Shown piece after piece: positions 3,927-60,100 of a DNA stretch of 64,000 nt (its first letter is position 1; each line of letters opens with the position of its first letter). Location of the stretch: positions 2,108,001 to 2,172,000 of the forward strand of contig SMSO01000035.1 in the NCBI GenBank assembly GCA_004764695.1, read 5' to 3'. A model generated the notes under the pieces. The model was not told the DNA's origin. It saw nothing but the letters and a program-made list of their open reading frames with translations, and did not search any database. The translations under genes were made by a program, and so were the position numbers. This stretch comes from Schizochytrium sp. TIO01 (taxonomy: Eukaryota; Protista; Bigyra: Labyrinthulomycetes).

Positions 3927-4587
3927 ATTGCTCTTTTATCGCTTCCGTCGCCTCCTTTAGAACTAACTAACTCTCAGAGGGAAACAGAGGACCTGTCGCT
4001 GATGGATGGATGTAAAGGACTCGAGCGTCTGTCAGTCTGTGAAGGGACGTAGATTGTGGACTGCTGCCGATACTGCGCTCTGCAATGAAGGCAGAGCTTT
4101 GCGAGGTCGAGGAGTAATGAATGCTTCTACTCTAAGTAGGTTTGTTTGTTTGTTGGTTTTGATTAAAAGTTGTTTGTTTGTTAGTTTGTTTGTTTGTTTG
4201 TTTCCTTTTTTAATCTTGTGTCAATTTTAATGTTATTGGAACTATGGTAGGGATCTCCCTAGCAGATACCATGGGAGTCCCATTTATTTCAGTTTTAGTT
4301 GATGTTATTTAGAGAAAGATTATAATAAATCTCACTTTTTGTTTATGATTTGTATAGAATGGTTTGTAAACATAACAAATTGGTACTCTAGAGTCGCTTG
4401 AACCGCACGTGGCTTTCTTACAAACCTTGAATCATTTTCGTCCCGTTGCACAGGCAGCCTTTGCACCGCTGCCAGGTTGAGGGAAACGCTCTCCTAGCGG
4501 CGCTGTTGGCACACGCTCGCAGGGGCCTGATTTTGGCGTGCGCAGGTGTAAGAGCCTGAGGTCTAACGCAGGGTTACACTCAACACG

Positions 4588-6441
4588 ATGGAGAAAACAG
4601 TTCAAAGAGATGCTGCCAACGCCCCTGAGCACGATGCTGAGACGACCACAGATAGACTTGTGGATGGGAACAGGCCTCAACATGATCAAGAATATGATGC
4701 TTTGGAGCAGCTGTCAATCCTTGCTCCTGAAGTTATTAAAAGCAAGACCTCGTTGAGTTCAACGCCTGCTTCGGAACTACTTCAAGACCAATCCCAGACT
4801 CAGAGTGAGTCGAACGCTGATCTGCAGACCGTTTTAAAGGTTCGCGAGCCACTTTCGCAAACACCTCCACCTTCACAAAGGGAACTGTTCTCAGACACGG
4901 ATAGTGAGAACAGCTCGCATGAGGAATTCACCGTTTCTGCGCCAACTATGCCACAGCGCAGCATCTTGAAAGGTGCAGCGTCATCATCATCATCTTCTTC
5001 TGTATCAGTATCGACGACAGGAACCACACACTTTGATGTGATGTCCCTTTTTTCAGAAAATAAGAATCCCTATAATCAAGAAGATAATGAGTCCTCTAAT
5101 TTGAAGTATTCACGGCCACTGCCAGCTCCCCCGGCACCCCCTAGGCAAACCTTTAACACACCAGAAGTAGCCACCCCTCCACCTCCTCCACCGCCACCCC
5201 CACCACCACCGCCCTCACTACCACATCTGGAACCAGAATCTCCATCAGCAGGATCTTCTTCAGGAAAAGGATTGACACTACTGACCTCAGGACTCTCGTC
5301 ATTTCTCACTAGCAGCTCGAGTGATCCTGGGAGTTCTCGCAAAGGGCGACCTCTGCAGAATTTGCTTAATCGGAATAAGGGAGAATCACCAAAACGCGTC
5401 GAAATTGCAGAGGAAGCCACCCAATCACCCAAAACTCAACTCATGTCACGCTCCACGCTGGACTCGACTTCTGCAGCACTGTCCGGAAGGAATTTCAATG
5501 AGCGTGATCGTGAGAATGCTGCTGCTCTTATTCATCGCTTGAGCTACAATAATATGCAAGAGATTCTGAACATGACTGCATTGGCTCTTAAGGAGACATT
5601 TGATAACCTAGGCATGCCTGATGTTGGCGAGGTTCTATACGAGCATGATATGAGCGGTATAGCTCTTTCTCAGTGTAGCAATGATCACATTGCTACATTT
5701 GAGTTTAAAACGCTTTCGGATCAATGTGCCGTAGAGTTGCTGGCAAAACGTCTTGCCCTGACTCTAGAAAGCCTTGAGAGCGAGCACCTTCTTTTTGAGC
5801 AAGAAACAGCGTACCACGGGCACCGATTTATTTGGGTGCCAGGTCCATGCTCGTTTTTCAATTTCTGGTCGATGCGCCCTTATCGTCTCGCCCACCAAAA
5901 ATTTGTCGACGCGGTTCTCTGCCGGCCGATGACTTTGTATGACATGCCTGAACCTCGCGTGGTTCTTCGAGGAGGCAAAATAACATTAATATTTTCTGCG
6001 TGGAATGAGGACCTAGTTCCTGCTCGCCATGCTAATTTATACAAAGTCCATGCGCCTGCCAACCAACACGGTGTCTTTCATACATTCTACGACAATACGG
6101 AGTATGATAAGATCATCGATATTGACATCCAAAAGTTTGATCGACCTTCAAAATATATAAAGACCTGGGAAGAAAGGGTATGTCTACAGACTTTATTATG
6201 CTCGATTCTTGAGCAGGAACCTAACCAAGGTCTTTGGTACTGGGTGACCCCATGCATGGCCTGTTGTGGTTACACACATTTCTATCAGGATATAAAAGAA
6301 GCCATCATCACAATGTCTGTCCGTGTAGGACGTCAAGTAGAGCGTAAATCATTTGGCGTGCTGATGAACTCTGACCTCATTGAACACCATATCCGAACCC
6401 AAATCGCTGAGAAGCGAATTCGCGGAGTTGCCCCAGCTTGA
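4588..6441 (+). CDS. Proline-rich protein with a central SAM-like domain and an unknown C-terminal domain
   Basis: 617-aa ATG ORF; disordered S/P-rich N-half with poly-Pro. LKETFDNLGMPDVGEVLYEHDMSGIALSQCSNDHIATFEFKTLSDQCAVELL resembles the SAM consensus. Confidence 0.8.
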   Translation: MEKTVQRDAANAPEHDAETTTDRLVDGNRPQHDQEYDALEQLSILAPEVIKSKTSLSSTPASELLQDQSQTQSESNADLQTVLKVREPLSQTPPPSQRELFSDTDSENSSHEEFTVSAPTMPQRSILKGAASSSSSSSVSVSTTGTTHFDVMSLFSENKNPYNQEDNESSNLKYSRPLPAPPAPPRQTFNTPEVATPPPPPPPPPPPPPSLPHLEPESPSAGSSSGKGLTLLTSGLSSFLTSSSSDPGSSRKGRPLQNLLNRNKGESPKRVEIAEEATQSPKTQLMSRSTLDSTSAALSGRNFNERDRENAAALIHRLSYNNMQEILNMTALALKETFDNLGMPDVGEVLYEHDMSGIALSQCSNDHIATFEFKTLSDQCAVELLAKRLALTLESLESEHLLFEQETAYHGHRFIWVPGPCSFFNFWSMRPYRLAHQKFVDAVLCRPMTLYDMPEPRVVLRGGKITLIFSAWNEDLVPARHANLYKVHAPANQHGVFHTFYDNTEYDKIIDIDIQKFDRPSKYIKTWEERVCLQTLLCSILEQEPNQGLWYWVTPCMACCGYTHFYQDIKEAIITMSVRVGRQVERKSFGVLMNSDLIEHHIRTQIAEKRIRGVAPA

Positions 6442-7095: not shown

Positions 7096-8658
7096 TTAAT
7101 TCAGTGGCCGTTCACCACGTTGTTGCAAGCACTTCGCACAGTAATCTAAAAGGCAAATATTGCAATGAAACATTGCTGCAGGGGGGGCGTGGAAAGTGCC
7201 ACAACGATCACAATAGTATCCCTTCAGGTATTCTTCGTCGCTTCGACGGTCAGCCATTTGTTGCGGCGTCTGGAGCGCATATGTATGTGAGCCGTTTCCA
7301 AAGCAGTCTATAACTTTTTGAGCCTTATGTGAGACTGGGGCAATTTTGATGCTCTTGTAATATCTGCGCCTTGCACAGGCACAAAACCGTTTGACAATAC
7401 AAGGTAATACGAAGAAAACCACGAAGACAACAATGGCACCTATAATTGAAATACCTCCATTAGTGTCACAAACTTCCCATTCGCAAGGACACCATTCCAA
7501 ATTGGTGCTCATGCAGGTTTGAAATGCAGAATAATTTGCTGGAGCCCCAAGCACTGTCTCAAGGTAGTAATTTGCTTCGTTCGTAGAGTTGCTCAAATAA
7601 GGCGCGCAATCATCATCCTCCTCACAAATCATATACTCAGATATACAGTTGCTGTCAATGTAGTATTGTACATGAGCCCATCCACCATCGTCCCGTGTAA
7701 AATGTTGGCCTACTGGGACGCAGTAACCAGCCCAATCTTCGCTTATACAGACTCCAATATTAGCGTCTGCAGGGCATGGATCATAGCCATACACTGTCTG
7801 CACTGTCGCGGTTGTTACAGCCGAGCTTTTTAACTCCAAGCTATCTGAGTTTCCCACAACTAATTCTTCAGAGCAGCCGCAAATAAGATTTTCTTGTGTT
7901 CCTTGTTGGCAGCCAGGGTCAGTCGGGTAGCTTGAGCAGCGCGAGCTTCCATAGTAGCGAGACGACCTGAAATACACAAGTGCTGCCCAAGAATATCCAG
8001 AATTAGAAATGAAATAACCTTTGGATGAAATATAGTATGATCCGCCACCGGACGATGTGTAATATGTCTTCGAGAATAACCTGTCTAATAAATCATAAGA
8101 AAATGAGTCGCCAGAGGAACCTTTGTTATGAACAAGTACACCTTCAACGAAGAACCAATGCGTTGGTTCAAGGCGTAATGTATATGTGGGAACTGCATCA
8201 GGCATGCGAACTAGATCGGTGACGTTAGCCAAGACAAGGCTTCCTGTTTCAGACATGAGAGCCTCATTTTCCTGTCGCATTTGCACAGCCTCCATACGAT
8301 AGGCTGATGCAGTAGTATCTGGTCGAAGTGAAATGACTTGTTTGCTCTCAAAACCATAATAGGGATGGTCTGGGGTTGACCAGATGAAAGAACCTGTCTC
8401 CATTTCTAGTTTCATTAGCTCGTTGGCTTCAGATGCGATTAGGTCTATTACGTTGGCCTCCACAACTTCTTCTAGTTCAAGATCATACGACAGCACACGA
8501 TCTCCTGGTTGTATATCTTTAATCGCTTTAAGAGACTTATCAGCCATATGTACTCGCATCGTGCCAGTAAAGCAAGAGCTGCCCTGTGATAATGTCGGGA
8601 GTAGCGCAAACAGGGTAAACGATACGCCACCCCACGACATAGTGCTGCTTAAGCGCAT
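7096..8658 (-). CDS. Signal peptide + Hint (intein-like) domain + Cys-rich ectodomain + TM + cytoplasmic Zn-finger protein
   Basis: First ATG at 8658. Hint block A CFTGTMRVHMAD...IKDIQPGDRVLS, block B STPDHPY, block F/G TYTLRLEPTHWFFVEGVLVHN. TM IIGAIVVFVVFFVLPCIV. C-terminal CDRC...HCNICLLDYCAKC. Confidence 0.9.
   Translation of the reverse strand: MRLSSTMSWGGVSFTLFALLPTLSQGSSCFTGTMRVHMADKSLKAIKDIQPGDRVLSYDLELEEVVEANVIDLIASEANELMKLEMETGSFIWSTPDHPYYGFESKQVISLRPDTTASAYRMEAVQMRQENEALMSETGSLVLANVTDLVRMPDAVPTYTLRLEPTHWFFVEGVLVHNKGSSGDSFSYDLLDRLFSKTYYTSSGGGSYYISSKGYFISNSGYSWAALVYFRSSRYYGSSRCSSYPTDPGCQQGTQENLICGCSEELVVGNSDSLELKSSAVTTATVQTVYGYDPCPADANIGVCISEDWAGYCVPVGQHFTRDDGGWAHVQYYIDSNCISEYMICEEDDDCAPYLSNSTNEANYYLETVLGAPANYSAFQTCMSTNLEWCPCEWEVCDTNGGISIIGAIVVFVVFFVLPCIVKRFCACARRRYYKSIKIAPVSHKAQKVIDCFGNGSHTYALQTPQQMADRRSDEEYLKGYYCDRCGTFHAPPAAMFHCNICLLDYCAKCLQQRGERPLN
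8125..8574 (-). other. Hint / intein-like autoprocessing domain (150 aa, no homing endonuclease)
   Basis: Starts with Cys (TGC, 8572-8574), contains TxxH and ends His-Asn (8125-8130). The +1 residue is Lys, not Cys/Ser/Thr. Confidence 0.9.
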
Positions 8659-10019
8659 CTTATCTTTTCCAAAAGAAAGGTGACGAAAAGAAAGGATCAC
8701 CTTGTTCGAGTAGCACGGTGATCTTTTCTGATTGCTGGTTTGTTGCTAAAACTTTTAGAGCAGAAACCGGGTTCGTTTCTCGTGCCCTAACAATACAACA
8801 AAATTGCTTACGCTGAATGGTTATGAAGCGCCGCCAAGACATCTTTGGGTAATTAAATTATGTGGTTTATAAATCCGCGCTTGGCAAGGCTCGCTAATTC
8901 CTGCTCCATGACCTGCTCCCGAAGTTTAGCACGGACATGTCCCACCTCGTATGTTCATGTGTGTGCGATCTATATTGTGAGGAGTCTATGCGAGAATGAT
9001 TTTCTAAAGAACTCTAGGCGCTTCTTTATAACACTAAGTTACGATTTGGCGCGAGCTTTGTTTACAAATCACAACTAAGCCGGACTGTGCTAGAGATCCG
9101 TTACATGAATCTCAGTGCCCCTACTTATATTCATGGACAAGCGGATCAAAACTCCCACAATTTTGATTACATACAGATCCCCCGTAGGCACTAGCCTATG
9201 ATACTGCCTATGCGTGTCTCGCCTCCACAGCCACGAAGACCAAACCTTTAGCTTTCCCTCACAGTGCGTGTCTGCTCCATAAGCCTGCATTCACAGAGCT
9301 TGCTTTGAAAATGAAACAAACGAAGCAAGAGGATCCATGATCACTTCTGCTCGCTTACCAGACCAAGAGTATCTGCAATAGAGTCTCCCTGACGCTTCGC
9401 CATCTTTGGTCTTGGTGCAAGGCATTGATTGCAAGGCATTGATTGCAAGGCATTGATTGTCCTGTTCTCGGCGATGATGCCGAGCAAGGTGGAGACGCCA
9501 GGGTTCTCCAAGCCCACGACGACGAAGAAGACGAGGTTCTCGAGTTCTACCTCGTGTAGGTCCTGACTGGCCGGCCGGTTGCCTGCCTCTCTTTATGCCT
9601 ACTCCAAGTGCTTCCTTCCATCCACAGACAGAAATCCGACGGCGGTGGCGAACTGCATTCACGAGATTACAATGGCTCCTCATTCTTCACTCCACTCGCT
9701 GGAAAAGACGGTTGCTGTGTCGTGGGCACAGGCAGAAAGCAGTTAGTTACCTTCTGCAGCCACGGCAGAAGAGGGTGTTTATGCATTGCTTGATTGATTC
9801 GTTTACGTGCAAACCAATTGCGAGGAGGTCTGTGCAGTCAATCCTGAGCAATTCCATGCAGTTCTGTGCAATTCTGTGCAATTCTGGGCAAGTTGGCTTA
9901 TTAAAGCTCGAACTGATTTGTATGGTTGAAGGACGCGATCGATTGATTGATTGATTGATTGATTGGCTGTTGCACAGCCAAGTCTGAAGAGCGTGGAAAT
10001 GATGAAGAGACAGGTAGAC

Positions 10020-15557: not shown

Positions 15558-18500
15558 TTACTCTTCTTTGTCGGTAGCCTCGGTCTCCTTCTTCTTAGTA
15601 TCCTTACCAAAATCGGGAGAAGGCACCTCAAGGGAACCATGTGGGAACTTCTTAAGGATTGACGCCTTAAGGTCATCTAACAGGGACTGAGAGGCTCCAA
15701 GGCCAGTCAGCTCTTCATGCATATCAGAAAGATCCTGGAAAAAGGCAGACTCCGGGAGATCACCCACTATGGAGGTCAAGGTTTTCTCAGCAGACTCAGC
15801 AACTTGAGCATCAACGCGAATCATCGCTACAGCTGCAGCAACGCGACTCGAGATGGAAGGGCTACCAGAGTTCTCCTTGAAAAAAGCGCTAGCTGCATCA
15901 GAAGGCGACCCATCAATAAGAGGCGCTGCATGAGACTCTACAGCAGTTCTAACAGACTCGGGGATCTCAACACTTTCAGAGATGGCAACGTTGACATCTT
16001 CATCAGAAGTAGACTTTCCAGCCCAAGGGGCATAAGTAACCTTACTGCTTTGCACAAGCTGAATAAACGGAGCGAGACGACTGAATACAGCAGGATTCTT
16101 GGCACCCCCAGGAGCCAAATCAACAGCACAGCACAGAGCACGAAGGGCCTGAAGGTACTTGCCACGGCGCACTTCCACATCAAAGATGCAAAGTTGCGTA
16201 TCAAGACGGGACGGGGCAAACTTGCGAAGAACTTCACAAAGCTTGTGCGCTTCCTCGAGAGGACTATCCGCATATTTTGCGAGAAGCTTAGCCCCCTTGG
16301 GGTCCTCATCAGTCGCAACACGAGAACGCTTGGCCTTGTCCTCGCCTTCATCCTCTCCTTCTTTCTTCTCACCCGACTCTTCCTCTTGCTTACGCTTCGC
16401 CTCCTCTTTACGAGCCTTGGCCTTAGCCTTCTTCTTTTCAGCAGCAGACATGCCAGAGAAACTATCTTCAGAGGATTTCTTAGCACCACCTGAAGAGCCT
16501 TCCTCACCGTCGCCAGACTTGGATGGAGCATCCTTCTTAGCTTTCTCAACAACAGCGGAGTACTTCGCTGGCTTATCATGAAGCTCGAGGAGACAATCAA
16601 TAACGCCCTTAGCCGCACGACCATACGCGGGATGTCCGCGAACATGGTCCTCATAACGAATTGTAGATACATATGCGCGCATTGTAGCCTTGCGCAAGCA
16701 ATACAAGTGGAATTCAAGTTGGTCTTCTTCAAAGTCATCGTAATGCTCAACAATGGCTGCATAGAACTTCAGAGCAAGTTGAAGGTCTCCAATCCTCTTG
16801 AAAGAGCGGGCAATTTCGATTTCAAACCAAACAGCCTGCATCTCTTTGAGGTAGCCACGGCTGTCACCCTCGTGTTTGGTGAAAAGACCAACCACATCTT
16901 CGGCCTTGTCAATCTGACCGGCTCTTAACAGATACTTGGTAGCCTTGGAGTTAATCCACTTGTCTGCAAGGTCGAGTTCCCGGCCCGACTCCATTGCAGC
17001 AGCAGCACCAATAAAATCTCCCATATGCTTGAGGATCCGTGCTTTAACCTGTAAAATTCAACGAACTAGATGTTAGATATCCCTGTCATACAACAAACAT
17101 ACAAATTGTTTTTCATTCAATGCCAACAATGACTTGAAGATCATATCATGGATGTTCACCCAACGAGCAATACCAGCACCAAAGGATCAGCAAACGTTGT
17201 TTTCATGGACGGGTGACCGTAGTCCCAGTCCTCTAAAGGTGTAGAATAGAATTTTTGCCATCATCTCCAACGTTGCTGGTCTTGTTCCATCTTTGAACAA
17301 ACTGATAAACAATAAAGATAAGCTGAGAATTTCAGCAAAATAAAACGAGATGCACTTACTACAAAAAGATCCAACGTGGTCGGCGTGTGCTCAATCGCCC
17401 TCTCAATCGTTGCAAGCGCCTTATCCTGTTATCGATGAAGCCATTGAAAACATGTTAGTACTTCCAAGTTGCTTAACCCAGACACAAACACTAAACCCCT
17501 CCAGCCCAGCCCAGTGCGTAAATGCCATGCTACTGAATGTTAAAAATCCATCAGAATGCTAAAGTTGTTTGCTCCTCAAAGTATTTCAGTACAGGTCTGT
17601 GAATAGTTCTTTCCTCCCGCGGATCTGTCAACAATCTAGCAGCGCACGCCACAGTGCGCATAAACATTTACACACAAGATTAACACCACCTACCCACCTT
17701 CGACCCACTTCCCCAAAACATCTGCGTGTTCTGCACATTGTCATTGTCAAAAGGACCCGTCCATCAGAATGCTAAAGTTGTTTGCTCCTCAAAGAATTTC
17801 AGTACAGGTCTGTGAATAATTTTTTCCTCCCGCGGATAAGAAGCTTAACAGACAATGAGACAGAAAGCAGAACACACAACTACCCAAAACACCCCACCCC
17901 ACCATCACACCAACTGTTGCAGGCACTTCGGTGCCTGCATAGATACTCAGATGACTTACGGACTCCGACATCATGTCATAGTGTTGTGCGAGAAAGAAGA
18001 GAGCCCACAATAACATTGTAGGCGACTCCTTTTCCTTGACAGAATCTCCCTCCAAGGCGGGAAGCTCACTTGTGGCATCCAGTGACTTGACGTAGCCCTC
18101 CACGAGCTCACCAAGAATCTGAACACGTTCCATCGCTTGCTTCTGAATTGACTCTGAAACATCGATGTTGTTACGCAATGCCATTTTATAGATAGGGCGA
18201 AGAGATGAGAAAAGCGAGGGAACGCCCTTTCGCATAGACTGACGAAGAAATCCATCTGCATGTGTGCGAAAAGCCTCACCCTGCAGGTAACCCATGGGGA
18301 TACGACGCACAGAAGTTGGCTTACGCTTCACCGTACCAAATAAATCTTCATACTGCTGCTGTAATGCTGCAATTTGTTCCTCGGAAAGTCTGTAGATTTT
18401 TTAACAGCGTCAAGTTAGTGTTTCGAACCTTGTAAAACCTCAACGTTCGCCAAACCACAGAAGTTGCACACATGTGATACAGTAGACGCTAGATATGACT

Positions 18501-20915: not shown

Positions 20916-21884
20916 CAACGACAAAGAGTACAGCTGGCGCAGCGTGTTAAGAGTCACATACGCCCTGCTAAGGTCCCGCGCTATGAGTGGTAGGAAAGCA
21001 TAGGTAACTCATGGATGGATGGATGGATGAGATGAGTCTACCGCCGCATTTAATGGGAGACAAAAAACACGCAGCTCCATCTCGGCGTCAAGCTCGATGC
21101 TCAGGACGGCAGAGCTCAAGAGCTGCTCCTAAAATGCTCCAACTTCGACTGGGTGGACGATGGCCACGATTTGGCCAAGGTTTACGCAGCGCAGCGATTC
21201 TCGGGAGCAATTTGGAGATGAAATCTGAAGATGTTTGCAATCTTGAAATCGCACCTTATTTCCACTGTATGGAGACGCTGATAGGGTTCACTTAGGGTAA
21301 AGTCCTAAGAGGGGGATCCTTAAAACGTCGATGGTCAACGTTAACAAACATAACATTTGCGAAGCAAATGAAAAAACCAACCTGTGCCATTAATTTGGAG
21401 AGCTAGCTGTGCGTTGGAAATCAAGGGCGGAGTGCAGCTATTTTGACCAGGATGTGGCTGCGATAAAGGCATAGGCGTACCAACTCGATCGATATCCATA
21501 TCTGCGAATCCTGCTTTTCAACTATTTTTTTTTTATGATGGTTTTCTTTTGTGGTTTTTATTTCGTTTTTTTTAAAGTTACTTCCGCATTTTCTTTTTTC
21601 CTTTTCTCTCGGAGGCCGAAATGTCCCATCCGCCTTAAATAGTATAGCTGCAGTGCATATGATACCAGTGTGTTTAAGGTGCTATAAATTACTAAGCTGG
21701 AGCGGCGATACCTAACGAGGTTAGGGACATAGAAAAAGGGCGCAAACAAGCGCCGAAAGTGGTTTGGGGGGGAGGGAAAAAACAGCAATGTTCGCGAAGA
21801 AGTGAAAGGTGATGTTAGCAGATAGTAATAGATAATGTGCTAGGTAATGAAGTGAAGTAGTGCTCTTTTAGGTTGTATAGTTGA

Positions 21885-22001
21885 AGGTCGATCTCTTAGA
21901 TTTTAAACTACAAAATTTGCAAAACTTGCATTTCATAGAAGGAGCTAAGACTCCATCACGGACTAGTTAGACTAACCCGCGACTCAATGAAATGATTTTT
22001 T
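21885..22001 (-). ncRNA. Putative Fanzor omega-RNA scaffold
   Basis: Directly after the stop codon: a CAUUUCAU...AUGAAAUG stem enclosing hairpins GCGGGUUAG/CUAGUCCGU and GGAGU/GCUCC, then UGCAA/UUGCA. The position matches TnpB/Fanzor omega-RNAs. Confidence 0.55.
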
Positions 22002-23798
22002 TTAAATCATGTCCTTGGATAGGTAGCGTAAAAGGATGCCTCTTGCGGCATGGACATCACGGTCTGCTACATGGTTGCACTTGGGATTAGGGCATTGGAA
22101 AACCTTGGATGCCCCGAGTTTATGGTGGAGGGTACCGCACTCATTGCATGTTTTTGAAGTGTAGCTCTCTTGGCAAAGAACAAGCTTGCACCACGGGAAC
22201 ATCTCAGCCTTATGAATGAGAGCCTGGCGGAACCCAAAATGGGACCAACGACACATCATTCGAACAGACTTCTTGGATATCCGTCGCTCCATCCTCCTGC
22301 TCATCTTAGAGGTTTCGAATTTAGGCAAGAGAATAACACGATAGTTTTCACAAAGCCAAAGCGCGAGCTTGCGGTGAATCTCAGTGATCTTGTTCTTGAT
22401 CTTGAGTTGGGCGCGATAGAAGGCGCGCTTCAAGGGGGTGTTGAAATCGTATGCAGTTTTCTTTTTATTTTCTTGAGCTTTATCAATCCTGCTTTGGATC
22501 TTATCAACGCGGCGACAGAGATAGAATATGGTTCTAAAATCTTTCCCTGTGCCCCATTCAATGGCGCGGCCATCAGCATCATACATCGTCTGAAACGAGC
22601 GAACACCTGGATCTAGAGCAATGACACTGTGGTGCGCCTTGGGTGCCTGGTCCATTGGACGCTTTTCTTCTTCTCGTAAGAAGCAGAAGTACACATGCCC
22701 AAGGCGATTCATTTGCACACGCATGGCGTTCTTAATCTGACTGGGGAACTTTTCTTTACGTGTTCGGAATTCTTTTAGAAAGTTGGAGGTCTTTGATTTC
22801 TTCGCATTCCAGGTACGTGCATTCACTTCGAAAATCTGTGATTCATCACGCTTGGTCCGAAACTTATAAAAAGATTGCTCATGGACTTTCTTTTGTACAG
22901 CGAGTTCTTCGTTTTTGGCTCGTCCAGAGTTAAGAGCCTTGAAGAAATCCAGAATCCCGGAATCACGGATAGCCTGTGGGACCTCGAGAACCCATTCAGG
23001 AGCATCATGCCTTTCTTTAGATCGAACGGCTTTCTTTTCTCCATAGAGGGCACCATACGTTTGGGGATTCCCATCTTCATCTACTAAAACCTGCTTCGTC
23101 TTGGAATCCTTTTTGATGCACGCTTCTTGATGCAATTTGATGGCTTCTTCCTCGCCCTTCGCCACGTCTCGGTGAAACGCAACGCCAGTATTGTAGGCTC
23201 TTCTAGTGACACCAAACCATTTAAGCAACTGTGTACGCTGATCTTTAGTAGGGTATACCCTGACCTTTTTGGCACGGACAAGGTCATATTCTTTCTTGAT
23301 GGTCTTGCGCGCCTTCGTGCGAGCTCGCTTCTTCCTCGCTGCGTCGTCGCCGTCTATTTTGCGCTGCTCGTTTTCCGTGATGCGATGCCACAAAGACGGT
23401 GATGATTCCGAGGAGGTCTTTGGTGAAGGTGTCTGCGTCTCCGGCATGTGCATCTTGGCCGTGTACCACGATTTTGACATTTTTTCTTTCGAAAAGGTGT
23501 TCCAGGAGGTCGACTGCGATTCGCGCAAGTCGGTCGCGGTGCATGACCACAACTTGGCCGATTCCGCCGCGGTCACAGGCGTCCAGTAGGGAGCACAGGC
23601 CTTGGCGTTTGAAATTGACCCCGCTACCGATGTCTTTGTAGACGGCGGAAGCATCTGGGTAGGCGCGCTGGAGATCGCCAACCTGGCGTTCGAGGTCCTC
23701 CTTTTGCTTGGCCGAGGACACTCTGGCGTAGATAACGGTACATCCAGAGCTGCGTTGCTCGCGGCCGGTGGAACCGCAATCAAAGATGCGCTCAACAT
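22002..23798 (-). CDS. tnpB: Fanzor2 / IS607 TnpB-like RNA-guided endonuclease
   Basis: HTH KKVRVYPTKDQRTQLLKWFGVTRRAYN; RuvC-I VIALDPGVRSF; ILLPKFET (Pro at the canonical Glu position) with the alternative Glu in QESYTSKTC; Zn ribbon CNEC...CPNPKC; RuvC-III DRDVHAARGI; basic NLS-like stretch ARKKRARTKARK. First ATG at 23798. Confidence 0.95.
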   Translation of the reverse strand: MLSASLIAVPPAASNAALDVPLSTPECPRPSKRRTSNARLAISSAPTQMLPPSTKTSVAGSISNAKACAPYWTPVTAAESAKLWSCTATDLRESQSTSWNTFSKEKMSKSWYTAKMHMPETQTPSPKTSSESSPSLWHRITENEQRKIDGDDAARKKRARTKARKTIKKEYDLVRAKKVRVYPTKDQRTQLLKWFGVTRRAYNTGVAFHRDVAKGEEEAIKLHQEACIKKDSKTKQVLVDEDGNPQTYGALYGEKKAVRSKERHDAPEWVLEVPQAIRDSGILDFFKALNSGRAKNEELAVQKKVHEQSFYKFRTKRDESQIFEVNARTWNAKKSKTSNFLKEFRTRKEKFPSQIKNAMRVQMNRLGHVYFCFLREEEKRPMDQAPKAHHSVIALDPGVRSFQTMYDADGRAIEWGTGKDFRTIFYLCRRVDKIQSRIDKAQENKKKTAYDFNTPLKRAFYRAQLKIKNKITEIHRKLALWLCENYRVILLPKFETSKMSRRMERRISKKSVRMMCRWSHFGFRQALIHKAEMFPWCKLVLCQESYTSKTCNECGTLHHKLGASKVFQCPNPKCNHVADRDVHAARGILLRYLSKDMI

Positions 23799-23807
23799 CG
23801 TCGCAGG
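23284..23807 (-). pseudogene. tnpA: IS607 TnpA serine recombinase lacking its N-terminal HTH and a start ATG
   Basis: Motifs IYARVSSAKQKEDLERQ, DIGSGVNFKRQGL, HRDRLAR and DLLGIITVF...HGKR. There is no ATG upstream of the catalytic Ser in this frame and no MerR-type HTH. Confidence 0.85.
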
Positions 23808-24331
23808 CTGCACAGATTGAACAATGAGACTTGTGATTTGCAGGTTTTTTTACAGGTGAGATCAACGTTCGTTTGATGTTAGGTTGAGATGCACAAGACT
23901 ATAATGCAGGGCACGAAAATATCTAGGCGGAAATAGATAGCCGTGTTGAGTAGCGGAGAATGCTCTGCTAATTTGGAAAGCGTTGTTGAGGATTTTGCAA
24001 GTTAAATTTGGTGCTTACGAATGCGTGTAAATCAAAGAGGAATTTGTTGTTCATCTAGTTATGAAAATCAGAAAAAGGTCAAATGCGCGCTGTGTATATC
24101 CTTTGGCGTTAAATAGTGCACATATATCCCAAATTTGCTGTTTCTCAAAAAGAAGAAAGTACCCTTCTTCAAATGTAAATAAAACAGCAGAAACTATCTC
24201 ACACAGTAACAACCTCAAAACAGTTGTGACAATCAAGTTGTTCTGATATCACGGTGACGGAGTACATGAAAAAAATCAAAAAGACTTTGGAGTAGTAACT
24301 ACAAAGCCAATTAGATTTATATGTTCATAAT

Positions 24332-26932
24332 TCACATAATGCAGCAAGCCACCTGTGACTGACGACCATTGTCAGCATGATTGGCCTCAAAGTCAACTTG
24401 GCATCCAACGAGCTCCTCAAACAAAGTCTCGGAGCGCACGTACTCTAAAGCTTTGAAAGAGGCACGGTGATGCTCATCAGTAAGCATTGCTGATTTACGT
24501 TTTTCTTTCTTTGTCGGTTCACCACCATCATAATCATTTGGCTGGAACTCTGCATTGACCGTAGTCGAACTGGGAATAAATGGTGGAACAATATGACGTT
24601 TCTCTAGTTTATCCCAATCGATGCCATCAAAGAAGGGATGCTCCATAATCTCCCTGACACCACGTGTACCGCACCCAAGTCGGGCTTCCGGATCATGGTG
24701 TAATAATTTGTGCACAAGATCTTGTGCTTCGTAGGTGAGACCGACGATGGGCTTTTCAGCTCTACCCGGCTCCTTTAAACGACGATGTAATTCGTTACGA
24801 TTTCTCTCCGCGCATTGTAATGCTGACTCAGACCACCGTACTTTACCAAGAACCATATTTCTTAACAACGTGCGATGAGACCGCTTTGGGCCACGAGTGA
24901 AAGGCATCCTTCCTAAGCAATAAAATTGGTGCAAAATCACCCCGAGTGCAAACCAATCTACAGAAACACCATAGTTAGGATAACGGGGCAAGCGATCTGG
25001 GTCTGCGGAGAGCCTTCGAACAGAGTTTTCAGTGTCTTCCAAGCGTCCGAGTCCATCGACATTCTCCCCACCATCATCGTTTTCATTATCACCATTGAGC
25101 AATGGAACTACAGGAATATTTGGCGACTTAAAGCTAGCTTGGAGCTGGTTAGCATTTCCACCAATTGCTACATTTGGTGATAATGGTGAGGCAATATAAC
25201 CTGGAGAGGTTGGCGAAGGTGAGCCCGGTGAACCTGGGCTCAGTAATGGGTTAACTGGGGAGAATGTCTCAACAGGTTGATTCTCTGGAGGTGGGAACAC
25301 CTTATTAGTGTCCACACGCAGAAATTGTCGAGTTGTCTTGTCACTCTGAACGTCAAGCATATTTGCGGTTGCCCGCATGTTGTTATTTGTATCTCCTAAT
25401 GAGGCTGTTCCTCCAGCTTTCCTTCGAGTTGTATTCGTAGTTTCAACTTTTGAAGAATTTGCTGCACCTCGTGCAAGTTGCGCGTTACTAGGGTCAAAAG
25501 CATCAACTCGTGCGGACTTAGAGGTGAGTGCTCGGAGAGATGATTGGAACGTTGAAAGCCAAGTTGTTCTTCGCGTTGTGCTGCTGCGTTTTTTAACCTC
25601 CGTCGGTCTCCTTCGGTCCCAACAGGGACCGAGATACATCTCTGGCGCAATGTAACCTGGAGTACCACAACACTGGTCATGACGAAGATCTTGTGCTGAT
25701 TCAGCAGTGACACTAAGACCAAAGTCACTGATAACAACATAGCCACTAGTGTCTAAAAGACAATTACTTGGTTTGAGATCTCGATGAATGATATGTTTGG
25801 AATGTAGATATCCGATACCCAACACAAGGCACGCCATCCAAAATTGTGCTACCTCGTGAGGGACTACTGGCATACGTCGTAAATGGAATTTGAGTTCTCC
25901 ACCTGGAAGAATATCAAGCAAAAAGTAGATATTTACATCATCTTGAAAAACTTGATGAACCCTTGCTACGAATGGGTAATCAACTTTTCGTAGAATGGTA
26001 GCTTCAGCCACAACTGTATTAAGTCGTTTCTTCGTAATAATGCGAACTTTATTCATTTCTTTCAAGGCCCATACAGCGTTTGTATCACTGTGCATCGCAA
26101 TGAAATTCAGTATTCGCCCATTTTGCAGATGAGCATGTATGCAGACGTATGTTCATTAGGTCAAATTTATCCCACAAATACATTTCACGTTAGCTTTTGC
26201 TTCCCTCCTATCCAAAATCTAACCTTACCATATCTTACAGAGGCGTGGTTAAACTCCCCTCGAAATATACGAAATGCTTCGGTTTTCTGCCACCTTATCA
26301 TCAACTTACACTACTCGAACGGCATGAACTTTGCCGAAACCTCCCTCGCCAAGCAAACGAAGACGTTCAAAATCACGCATTACACGGGGTTTCAAGGCGT
26401 AATTCTCGAAACTCGCCAGTGCATAGCCATACGGCCCATCAATAAAACTTCCAACGTGATCGTTCAGACGATCGAGAAGATATGCCATAACCATTTTCAA
26501 AGAGTTCGGGATTTTAGATACTATACCGGCGTTAATGAAGCCAGCAATATCCTGGTCAAGCTGAGTAACTGACTCGGCCCCTTCATCGCCAACGAAGTAT
26601 GGTTTGCCTGGTGTTAAATAAGTGAGTCCAATATGTCGCAAATAAGATAACAACTTAATGCCAGGTGGAATTGCCTGCGCTTGATCGCAATCTTCGTAAC
26701 AGAGAAGTAGCTGCAAAAGATTTTCATCACGAAGGTACCTCCAGAACAGAGATCGTTTGACCCCACTGGAAAGAATAGCGTCAGCTTTGAGGTTGGTGCG
26801 GAATCGTGCGAGCAGGTTCTGAAGATTTGAATAGGTCAGCTGCCGCTTGGTTTTGTGCACAGCAAACTTGGATATTGCACATTGTGCATCAAGAAAGCGT
26901 TGATCCTCCACAACTTGGTTGAGAATATTCAT
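24332..26932 (-). CDS. G-protein-coupled-receptor-kinase-like AGC kinase (RH/RGS-like domain + kinase); exons 26932-26310 and 26087-24332
   Basis: N-helix MNILNQVVEDQRFLDA, then a helical RH-like region, DFERLRLLGEGGFGKV, ALKEM, HRDLKPSN, DFG, GTPGYIAPE, VDWFALG and the AGC tail HPFFDGIDW...PPFIP. A GTAAGT...CAG intron (26088-26309) joins in frame (VRVVDTNAVWALK). Confidence 0.88.
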
Positions 26933-57133: not shown

Positions 57134-60100
57134 TTATTTAAGCTTTGCGTAAGCTCTTTCACAGATACCTAAAAACGGAAACCTTCTATGTGCTGCTTGA
57201 ACTGCCTCGCAAGCACCTACCCTTATAAGCTGGCTTGCCACTTCGCGGTTACATGCCATAACATAAATTGCCTCGCATGCTTGTTTCTGCACATTCCCAT
57301 TCATTCGATGTGCTTGCATGGAAACAACGATCTCTGCACCTGCGTTCAATACTAGTGCTAGATTGATGTTGTTGTTCTCGTTCTCAGCAAGATTACGCAA
57401 TGCCCCGCATGCATGTAGTTGCACAGCCACATTCATCCGATGAGTATGCATTGCAACCACTATATATCCGCCTGCATTTATATCTCGCCCAAGTATCGCA
57501 CTGTTGACTTGACTTGCTGAAAGATTTAATAGCGCTTCGCATGCGTTTCTCTGCACGTTATCATCCATCTCATGTTCTTGCATTGCAGCCACAACCTGCA
57601 AACCTACATCCGAATTTTGCCCAAGAATCACGCTATTGCGTTCATTCGTAGCAAGGTTCGATAGCGCCTTGCACGCGTTTTCTTGCAAGTACGCGTTCGC
57701 TGGATGTTCGCTCATGGTCGCCGTAATCTCTGCACCCAGATTTAGAGTTTGACCTAATATGACTTTGTTCCGGTCGCTTTCAGTAAGATACTGCAATATT
57801 GCACATATTTCTTCTTGCGTATCTTCATCCGTTCGATGAATACGCATGGTATTTATAATTGCCAGACACAAATTGAGGTCTTGTCCAAGTACATGCTTGT
57901 TGCGGTCACCAGAAGCCAAAGCTCGGAGTGCTCCGCATGCGTTGCATTGAATGTCGAGATTCAGATCATGTTCGCGCATGGTAGCCTCAATTTCTGCTAG
58001 TAAATTCAAATCTTGCCCAAGAAGTTCTTTGTTACGATCGCTCAGAGAAAGGCTGCGGAGCGCTCCACATGCCAGCTCTTGTAGTTCTTCATTCATCCGA
58101 AATGTACGCATAGCTATCATAATTTCTCTCCCTGCATTTTGATTTTGTAGGAGAATATCGGCGTTACGGGTGTTCATAGTGCCCAGAGTCCAAAGTGTTC
58201 TACATGCTTCTGTCTGCACATTAACATTTTCTCGATGCGCGCGCATCGCTGCCATAATTTCTGCTCCTACGTTGAGATCTTGCACCAGTATCTTGCAATT
58301 CGTATCGTCGTTATATCCAAGTACACACAATGCGCCAACCGCCGATTCTTGCACATCAGCATGTGACCTATGTTCGCGCATCGCTGCCAATATTTCTGCT
58401 CCCGCCACACTGAGATCTTCTCTCAAAGTCTCCCTGTTGCGAGAGCTAAGTGCAAGATTATGGAACACACGGCATGCTTCTGTCTGCACATTAGCATTTG
58501 ATCGATGATCACGCATGGCGGTCAAAATGTCTACATGTACGTTTAAGGTTTGCTCGAGAACCTCTCTGTTGTCGTTACTTAGTTGAGCAAGAATATACAA
58601 CGCCCTAAATGCTTGTTCTTGCACCTCTGCAACTATACGATGTGCTCGGATAGCCTCCTGAATAACTGAGCCCGAATCGACATCTTTTAAGAGTATCTCC
58701 GAGTTGTAGAAATTGTTAGAAAGGTTTTGTAATGCTTTACATGCCCAAAGTTGCACATTGGCATCCGATTGGTGTGCGCTCATAGCAGCGGCAATTTCTG
58801 CACCCACACTCATCTCCTCTACAAGAATCTCACAATTTCGATCATTTCCAGAAACAAGATTATACAATGCTCTACATGCCTCTTCCTGAACCTTTGCATT
58901 TGTCTGATGTGTCCCCATAGCCGTCATAATCTCAGCACCAGCATTCGAATCTTGAATAAGAATGTCTCTGTTAGAGTTATTGGATGCAAGAGAACATAAT
59001 AGTATACAAGCCTGTTCCTGGACTTGAGCGTTAGATGGAAAAGCGCGCATGACAGCTACAATCTCAGAGCCCAAGTTTAGATCTTGTACGAGGGCAATCC
59101 GATTACCCTCGTGGACCGTCACAAGGCTCCTTAGACTTGCAAAAACTGATAATTGGACTTCAGCATTGCTGGCTTGTTCTTGCAAAATACAAATGAGGTC
59201 AGATCCCCAAGAGAAATTTGTCATTGCGGCCTCAATATACTCATAGGCAGTTTCTCCAGATAAAGCAAAATGTAACGTCCATAAGGCTTCAGATATCAAT
59301 TTTGGGTCGTCTTTTTGTTCTCCTAAAATTCGTTGTAAATGAACAAGAATCCCTCGTGTCCGCACCTCACTCCGCAGCTGATCTTGACCCTCCCCATTCT
59401 TAAATTCGCCTTCCAAGATATTGCGTAAAGCCCCTAACGTGTTTAGCAAATTGGCTCGTTCATTTGGATTGACCAAGTCTCGAACAAAACCTTGGACTCT
59501 TTCAATTTCTATAGTTGCTTTGGTAGATCGACGACGATCTAGTTTTGAAAACGTGCCAGCAATTCCGCGTATAAGACGACTCGACCGTCGTTTAACACCA
59601 CGTGCTTCAAATTTTTTCAAAGCTTCCTCCGCGCTCGGTCGCTCTCCAGGGTTTTGACTCCAGCATAATTCGATGACGCGAGTCACCCATGATTTGGCCG
59701 ATGCTTCCTCATAAATAGCAGGACGCATGCCTGCTAAAACCATGCTTTCAATCTCCCCTGGTAGTAAGCTTAAGTCATATGGCACTTTTTCATGATATAT
59801 TTCCCAAGACATCATTCCTAACGAATATATATCTGCCTTAGTAGTCCATTGTACAGGTGCTTGGAGCACTTCAGGGGCCATGTACCTGGATGAATGAGGT
59901 AGTGCAATGGTGTAGGTTTGACTTGTGTTTGGGCGTGTTCTAGCAGCCAACCCAAAATTTGCAAGTTTGGCAAGCCCCAAATCGTGTCTAAGCATCACAT
60001 TCGCAGGCTGAAGATTACTATGGACCACATTTTGATCATGAAGATAACAGAGCCCCTTTGTGATACTACACAGAATTCTCTCTTTGTCGTCAAGACTTAG

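What the first reader, a model, noticed from the sequence alone, without database searches (positions are those of the whole stretch)
21860..22001. Predicted omega-RNA and guide of the Fanzor
Seen: nested stems directly 3' of the stop codon, plus a possible GUCG (near the 5' end) / CGAC (21887-21890) pseudoknot pairing. Established: TnpB/Fanzor omega-RNAs derive from the element right end and the guide comes from the adjacent flank. Inference: the scaffold ends near 21886 and the guide starts about CUUCAACUAUACAACCUAAAAG. If the element is immobile this guide is fixed and might target something other than the empty site, such as a virus or a host locus.
Basis: partly seen in the sequence, partly recalled or inferred. 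Interest (0 to 1): 0.7.

Follow-up and report, generated by a model that had tools for sequence, protein, structure and literature searches.

The report
Fanzor guide aimed at empty allele
This is the predicted guide RNA of a jumping gene's DNA-cutting enzyme in a microbial eukaryote; its guide part matches the same chromosomal spot in genomes that lack the insertion, and two such genomes carry small deletions there that are likely repair scars from cutting.

Summary
The structured RNA is real and is the predicted omega-RNA of an IS607-type (serine recombinase plus Fanzor2) element on the minus strand. Contigs of 4 of 4 runs and an empty allele place the right end at 21895, followed by an AG core (21894-21893). 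The guide therefore starts at 21892, not 21886, and CGAC is guide, not scaffold. GUCG lies in a 13-bp hairpin. The likely pseudoknot is loop CUUAG (21949-21945) with terminal CUAAG (21899-21895); the pairing covaries in relatives (20 of 28 loci, null mean 5). The family is multi-copy and the site is polymorphic. This copy lacks its left end and the recombinase's DNA-binding domain, so it is likely stranded, with an intact Fanzor frame. The guide matches the empty allele 20 of 20; one viral 18-mer hit is at chance level. Of four empty alleles seen, two have 25-27-bp deletions that remove most or all of the predicted protospacer, likely end-joining scars of Fanzor cutting in a native host. I found no report of such scars. 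Against: one run holds an intact empty allele beside a filled one. No RNA or cutting was shown.

The parts
21893..23807 (-). IS607-type (IS607EU) element, 5'-truncated copy of a multi-copy family
   Evidence: Depth jump over 21862-23837 in 4 of 4 runs and loose ends before 21895; empty allele joins 23808 to 21892; no second copy in the window
22002..23798 (-). Fanzor2 ORF, 598 aa from the first ATG, no internal stop; DPG at 396, shifted RuvC-II E544, zinc finger from C551, D581
   Evidence: best PDB hit 9B0L (ApmFz2), E 1.5e-17; start codon not tested
23284..23808 (-). TnpA serine-recombinase remnant without the N-terminal DNA-binding domain; overlaps the Fanzor frame by 515 nt
   Evidence: NF033518 over cut-off, profile positions 45-187 of 187; relatives carry a median 41 more residues upstream (n=52); other copies run on past 23808
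23808..23811 (-). Left core dinucleotide AG (23809-23808) and predicted TAM side of the empty site
   Evidence: Every allele seen changes at 23808, or 23813 in X5; TAM role inferred from IS607 literature
21893..21994 (-). Predicted omega-RNA scaffold; 3' end at 21893, 5' end not fixed
   Evidence: Folding; end from copies and empty allele; core inside scaffold by analogy with IS607 systems
21955..21983 (-).
   Evidence: two wobble pairs become Watson-Crick pairs in other copies (table 7, by hand)
21941..21954 (-). Short hairpin whose loop CUUAG (21949-21945) is the predicted pseudoknot 5' strand
21895..21899 (-). Terminal CUAAG, predicted pseudoknot 3' strand and last element-specific bases
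21904..21930 (-). Three imperfect 9-nt direct repeats, likely TnpA binding motifs of the right end
   Evidence: Period 9 best of 7-12 but weak, 16 of 34 matches; analogy to 9-bp motifs of IS1535
21893..21894 (-). Right core dinucleotide AG
   Evidence: Empty allele keeps a single AG; family ends in NG in 27 of 28 loci, partly built into the profile
21873..21892 (-).
   Evidence: Identical to the first 20 nt after the junction in empty allele X11; guide lengths
21860..21884 (-). Segment deleted (target positions 9-33) in the empty allele of run X1
   Evidence: table 5c; numbering

Best explanation
This is the predicted omega-RNA of an IS607-type Fanzor2 transposon: the scaffold likely ends at the AG core (21893), and the guide from 21892 matches the empty allele of the same site, which the Fanzor would cut. 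Steps: (shown) the element is multi-copy, ends at 21895 plus core, and this site occurs filled, empty and empty-with-deletion in related genomes. (Inferred) a transcript through the right end gives a scaffold closed by the CUUAG/CUAAG pseudoknot plus 11-21 nt of flank. (Inferred from bacterial IS607 work) TnpA excises the element precisely and rejoins TAM and target; Fanzor2 cuts that joint or an empty homologue; repair from a filled copy restores the element. (Inferred, weaker, about 0.55) repair by end joining instead leaves the 25-27-bp deletions seen in X1 and X5, which would make the site immune. The window copy has lost its left end and is likely unable to move, so it would act as a fixed-site homing cassette if expressed.
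For: Right end: loose ends before 21895 in X1, X2, X3, X5 (7, 9, 9, 6 contigs, agreement about 0.5, i.e. mixed flanks). Empty allele X11 joins 23808 directly to 21892 with 20 of 20 guide identity. Pseudoknot: complement of the terminal 5-mer upstream in 20 of 28 loci against swap-null mean 5.0, max 12 of 2000 draws; strictly inside a hairpin loop in 10 of 28 against mean 1.7, max 6, with 7 different 5-mers; 11 of 17 non-seed loci also show it (counted). IS607 scaffolds end with the core, and the pseudoknot next to the guide is required in ISXfa1 and seen in ApmFz2. Catalytic residues intact. Two MMETSP-labelled transcripts encode 92-95% identical family proteins. Deletions: X1 loses target 9-33 with the junction left exact, on the same flank haplotype as filled X2; X5 loses the TAM side and target 1-20; the listed flank pieces of X1 and X5 (910, 1693, 676, 921 nt) have 0 gaps. 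Fanzor2 enzymes cut at positions 9-19 and leave 2-35-bp deletions in cells.
Against: X3 appears to hold a filled allele and an intact empty allele together (depths 25.5 and 27), and X11 has an intact target, so cutting is not efficient or not universal. The TAM is untested; other copies seem to end mostly in TG rather than AG (loose-end consensus, low agreement), so this site may be a poor target. X5's deletion spans the junction and fits a failed TnpA excision equally well. Only two deletions, from assembled contigs, with tables cut (79 joints not shown). None of 6 runs bridges the window's own truncated left junction, so that truncation is unreplicated. 8 of 28 loci lack the complement, 48 of 76 loci had no callable end, and the loci are related, so counts are not independent.
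Confidence: 0.8

Rival explanations
1. The omega-RNA boundary and target are as described, but the system is silent or nearly so in this host, and the X1 and X5 deletions are footprints of failed TnpA excision or unrelated deletions.
For: Intact empty target persists in X11 and beside a filled allele in X3. X5's deletion crosses the core where TnpA breaks DNA. The left-junction truncation shows that junction-centred rearrangements occur here. No RNA evidence for this copy.
Against: X1's deletion leaves the core and 8-9 further bases exact and starts inside the protospacer, which a break at the core does not predict. TnpA excision gave precise joints in a bacterial IS607. No gaps in 4.2 kb of listed flank pieces of those two runs.
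Confidence: 0.3
2. One reading: scaffold ends near 21886 with a GUCG/CGAC pseudoknot, and a fixed, domesticated guide attacks a virus or another host locus.
For: The copy is truncated and likely immobile with an intact Fanzor frame. One exact 18-mer guide match in viral contigs, preceded by CG. A 12 of 12 seed match at window 6140-6151, preceded by TG, in a host ORF.
Against: Copies diverge before 21895 and the empty allele contains CGAC. The guide is ordinary flank shared with empty alleles. The viral hit stops at 18 nt, lies in a record with a terminase gene, and 0.6-2.3 hits are expected for an assumed 20-80 Gb collection. 1.9% of flank 12-mers recur in the window by chance. The truncated allele was seen in 0 of 6 runs, so it is not fixed.
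Confidence: 0.04
3. The window's truncated left junction is an assembly error and the real allele is a full-length mobile element.
For: 0 of 6 runs bridge the junction; X2, X7 and one X3 contig carry a different, shared 25-27-letter segment there, likely the true left end.
Against: The break falls exactly at the core and joins to an internal NG inside tnpA with a one-base overlap, which suits a recombinase-made deletion better than a misassembly. This does not affect the omega-RNA or guide.
Confidence: 0.2

Closest known systems
ApmFz2 / ApmFNuc of mimivirus IS607 elements (PDB 9B0L; PMC11832414, PMC10530073)
   Same: Best solved-structure hit; TnpA plus Fanzor2, shifted RuvC-II glutamate, long N-terminal extension, omega-RNA from the 3' non-coding end with a pseudoknot at the last scaffold bases.
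   Different: Here nuclear and multi-copy in a eukaryote; AG core instead of a GGG TAM; only 109 nt between stop and core against about 200; distant protein (aligned mainly over the C-terminal 200 aa).
Bacterial IS607 TnpB systems ISXfa1 and CboIStron (10.1101/2023.08.09.552727; 10.1101/2023.11.20.567912)
   Same: Serine recombinase, dinucleotide core kept in the scaffold, pseudoknot next to the guide, precise empty joint as the target.
   Different: Core is NG (AG here), not GG; host appears diploid, so an empty homologue is a possible target; end-joining-like deletions at the empty site; no group I intron found.
NlovFz2 and MmeFz2 (PMC10432273)
   Same: Eukaryotic Fanzor2 with 3-nt TAMs ending in G (CCG, TAG), which fits a predicted CAG here.
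   Different: Those were tested heterologously; in the passages read their native alleles were not examined. Relatedness to them was not tested here.
Homing endonuclease genes and their resistant alleles (review PMC13565253)
   Same: Cut the empty allele and are copied by repair; end joining would create uncuttable alleles.
   Different: RNA-guided and reprogrammed by each new flank; homing shown for bacterial TnpB, and the review sections read give no eukaryotic in-host demonstration.

Membership tests
IS607EU / IS607-family transposon | TnpA serine recombinase upstream of and overlapping TnpB/Fanzor | tested here: met
   PF00239; NF033518 125.9 bits over cut-off 110; TnpA-like hit in 83 of 122 loci
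IS607EU / IS607-family transposon | TnpA with N-terminal DNA-binding domain and a left end | tested here: not met
   Missing in the window copy (profile 45-187 only); other copies run on into the wing motif and X2, X7, X3 carry a likely left end at this site. The copy is a defective member.
IS607EU / IS607-family transposon | Insertion at a 2-bp core, no terminal inverted repeats or longer duplication; precise empty site | tested here: met
   AG at both junctions, one AG in empty alleles X11 and X1. Inverted repeats could not be tested without the full left end.
IS607EU / IS607-family transposon | Short direct repeats inside the ends | tested here: inconclusive
   Weak 9-nt period at 21904-21930
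Fanzor2 | DPG at RuvC-I, glutamate shifted to just before the zinc finger, C4 finger, RD motif | tested here: met
   D396, E544, C551, D581; conserved in alignment A1; definition
Fanzor2 | Eukaryotic or eukaryote-viral host | tested here: met
   Flanked by a kinase and a split NAA15-like gene with eukaryotic homologues; MMETSP-labelled transcripts. Host taxon not determined.
Fanzor2 | Placement in the Fanzor2 clade by phylogeny | not tested
   No tree built; assignment rests on motifs, TnpA link and best PDB hit
TnpB/Fanzor2 omega-RNA | Structured RNA at the right end, guide from variable flank | tested here: met
   At DNA level:
TnpB/Fanzor2 omega-RNA | Pseudoknot between last scaffold bases and an upstream loop | tested here: met
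   Covariation by script; structure itself not probed
TnpB/Fanzor2 omega-RNA | RNA is expressed, binds the protein and guides cleavage next to a TAM | not testable with these tools
   Only contigs available; no raw small-RNA reads
Domesticated fixed-guide TnpB derivatives (TldR-like or antiviral) | Fixed locus, conserved guide with an external target, often dead RuvC | tested here: not met
   Site polymorphic, guide equals own flank, RuvC intact; viral match at chance level

The most novel reading that the evidence does not exclude
The deletions in X1 and X5 are natural Fanzor editing scars: a native eukaryotic Fanzor2 has cut the empty allele of its own insertion site and end joining has made resistant alleles. 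One site then shows the whole homing cycle (empty, filled, heterozygous, excised and scarred, stranded copy), and a genome-wide survey of this species would test directly what Fanzors do in their hosts.
Probability: 0.5. Interest if true: 0.75.

Novelty: new member of a known kind. Interest (0 to 1): 0.52.

Why it matters
The omega-RNA itself is a new member of a known class, now with a corrected boundary, guide and pseudoknot, which is what a programmable test needs. The wider value is the allele series. The role of Fanzors in their hosts is stated as unknown (PMC10530073, passage), and homing has been shown for bacterial TnpB. A multi-copy, polymorphic IS607-Fanzor2 family in a eukaryote with many sequenced strains, showing deletions inside the protospacer of empty alleles, makes that question testable from existing genomes.

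Tried and rejected
No whole genome is held, so no genome-wide copy or off-target search. Rfam: 3 weak chance-level hits, no omega-RNA or intron family. Single-protein search of viral contigs: no relatives; the alignment query worked. Repeat search of the window: microsatellites only, no second copy. Promoter/terminator scan: chance level and a bacterial model. Earlier scan notes: nothing in 3 look-ups. Host taxon: two homologue searches gave no named close relative, cluster look-up gave no organism for the closest proteins, the atlas did not answer. An IS605-like end at TCAA (21884-21881) was considered and rejected: it lies in flank. Summed contig depth was not used as copy number. No structure prediction, tree or covariance model was made.

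Full report
Setting. The region lies on the minus strand directly after a 598-aa Fanzor ORF (23798-22002) with Pfam TNB and HTH domains, DPG at 396, the shifted RuvC-II glutamate E544, a zinc finger and D581. Its best solved relative is mimivirus Fanzor2, 9B0L. An IS607 serine recombinase frame overlaps its start by 515 nt. The element sits between a kinase gene and an NAA15-like gene of a eukaryote. The host taxon was not determined and no whole genome is held.

Observation. They are an outer stem (21994-21987 with 21936-21929), a 13-bp hairpin (21983-21955) and a short hairpin (21954-21941). GUCG is the start of the 13-bp hairpin. In loose ends of other copies two wobble pairs of that hairpin become Watson-Crick pairs, one of them at the last G of GUCG (table 7; read by hand, and the two arms come from different loose-end rows).

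Right end. Of 24 listed runs I laid 6: X1, X2, X3, X5 on 20950-25500 and X2, X3, X7, X11 on 23745-23990. Depth rises steeply over 21862-23837 in 4 of 4 runs, and each has 6-9 contigs that match from 21895 inward and continue into mixed sequence. X11 has an empty allele that joins 23808 directly to 21892. The dinucleotide AG stands at both junctions of the filled allele (23809-23808 and 21894-21893) and once in the empty allele, as for an IS607 core. In two bacterial IS607 systems the core belongs to the scaffold (passages). So the scaffold likely ends at 21893 and the guide starts at 21892.

Pseudoknot. I fetched 121 related loci. 116 could be anchored, 105 had at least 150 nt downstream, and 76 were non-redundant including the window. 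An end profile, seeded by eye on 11 loci with the terminal 5-mer masked, called an end above the shuffled 99th percentile in 28; the other 48 were left out. The reverse complement of the terminal 5-mer occurs upstream in 20 of 28 (swap null mean 5.0, max 12; sliding the 5-mer gives 2-11), including 11 of 17 non-seed loci. It lies strictly in a hairpin loop in 10 of 28 (null mean 1.7, max 6; 7 different 5-mers). In the window this is loop CUUAG (21949-21945) with CUAAG (21899-21895). Some ends are misregistered and the loci are related, so these are not independent counts. A pseudoknot at the last scaffold bases is required in ISXfa1 and seen in ApmFz2. The 5' end of the RNA is not fixed.

Mobility. 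The family is multi-copy and transcribed: two MMETSP-labelled transcripts encode 92-95% identical proteins. The window copy begins inside tnpA. The profile match covers positions 45-187 of 187, relatives have a median 41 more residues (n=52), and other copies run on past 23808. X2, X7 and one X3 contig carry a shared 25-27-letter segment at this junction, likely the true left end; X2 also has the right end at this site. The window allele therefore likely arose by a deletion from the left core to an internal NG in tnpA, perhaps made by TnpA itself. No run bridges this junction (0 of 6), so it is unreplicated.

Alleles of the site. X2 and X7: filled (only the left junction seen for X7). X11: empty, target positions 1-20 identical to the guide, then two small insertions in base runs at about positions 20-23. 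X3: two contigs of depth 25.5 and 27; the mixed consensus and its 0.75 agreement are reproduced by hand as left end plus an X11-type allele, so X3 is likely heterozygous. X1: empty, exact junction, target positions 9-33 deleted (25 bp, depth 472.7), with the same flank variants as filled X2. X5: empty, 23812-23808 and target 1-20 missing, with one extra base shared with X11, i.e. one 27-bp deletion from an X11-type allele (depth 72). Two of four empty alleles have thus lost the protospacer, while the listed flank pieces of these runs have no gaps in 4.2 kb (tables were cut). Fanzor2 enzymes cut at target positions 9-19 and give 2-35-bp deletions near the target's 3' end in cells. X1 fits a Fanzor cut and fits a TnpA break at the core poorly; X5 fits both. 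Against active cutting, the intact target persists in X11 and next to a filled allele in X3.

Other targets. The 18-nt guide start has one exact match in viral contigs. It ends at 18 nt, lies in a record with a terminase gene, and 0.6-2.3 matches are expected for an assumed 20-80 Gb (the collection's size in bases was not given). A 12-nt seed match at window 6140-6151 was found after the fact; 31 of 1653 flank 12-mers recur likewise. Neither supports a dedicated outside target.

Mechanism. Shown: ends, core, allele series, intact catalytic motifs, covarying complementarity. Inferred: the RNA is made and loaded; TnpA excises precisely; Fanzor2 cuts TAM plus target on the excised or homologous chromosome; repair restores the element or, by end joining, destroys the target. 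Because both the filled right junction and the empty site end in AG before the protospacer, self-discrimination would need the third base (G in the element, C in the empty site), as described for ISXfa1. This predicts a TAM like CAG.

Literature. Read: 10.1101/2023.08.09.552727, parts 1 and 5 of 7 and passages; 10.1101/2023.11.20.567912, passages; PMC10530073, passages; PMC13565253, passages and the first part of section 6; PMC3627910, passages; PMC11832414, part 1 of 5 and passages; PMC10432273, passages; PMC6188088, passages. Searches for Fanzor with empty site or allele, deletions, footprints or end joining and with host-group terms listed no report of natural Fanzor scars among the 20 titles shown per search (one search had no hits). 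The library is incomplete. No supplements were read; the survey tables or Repbase may already list this family. The expansion of MMETSP as a marine protist transcriptome set is recalled.

Verdict. Interest 0.52, carried by the possible natural editing scars.

Noticed in passing
window 6140-6151 (+): Exact match to guide positions 1-12, preceded by TG, inside a 624-codon host ORF (4567-6441) without Pfam hits; possible off-target, but 1.9% of flank 12-mers recur by chance.
   Followed up: partly
window 23284-23798 (-): About 170 N-terminal Fanzor codons are dual-coding with the TnpA catalytic domain; a long N-terminus with conserved tryptophans is shared by most relatives in alignment A1.
   Followed up: partly
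window 22361-23636, runs X1, X2, X3, X5: Several internally deleted copies share breakpoints near 22382 and 23608, a likely non-autonomous subfamily; others replace 21934-22002 of the scaffold (tables 5, 5c, 7).
   Followed up: no
window 23808, run X1: The left-flank contig breaks exactly at the core although the right flank is unbranched; a second allele or rearrangement is unexplained (table 8).
   Followed up: no
window 7096-8745 (-): Host ORF with a Hint domain (PF01079 over cut-off) after an apparent signal peptide and with an apparent C-terminal membrane helix (the two apparent features by eye).
   Followed up: partly
window 57276-59097: Array of degenerate 132-135-nt repeats, likely a repeat protein.
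   Followed up: no
window 17547-17624 and 17760-17837: 78-nt direct repeat, 96% identical, 213 nt apart, between exons of the NAA15-like gene.
   Followed up: no
L014, L016 and L102, L103, L105: Near-identical relatives with different flanks fix their own right ends; L014 and L016 have very short 3' non-coding regions without the complementary loop found elsewhere.
   Followed up: no
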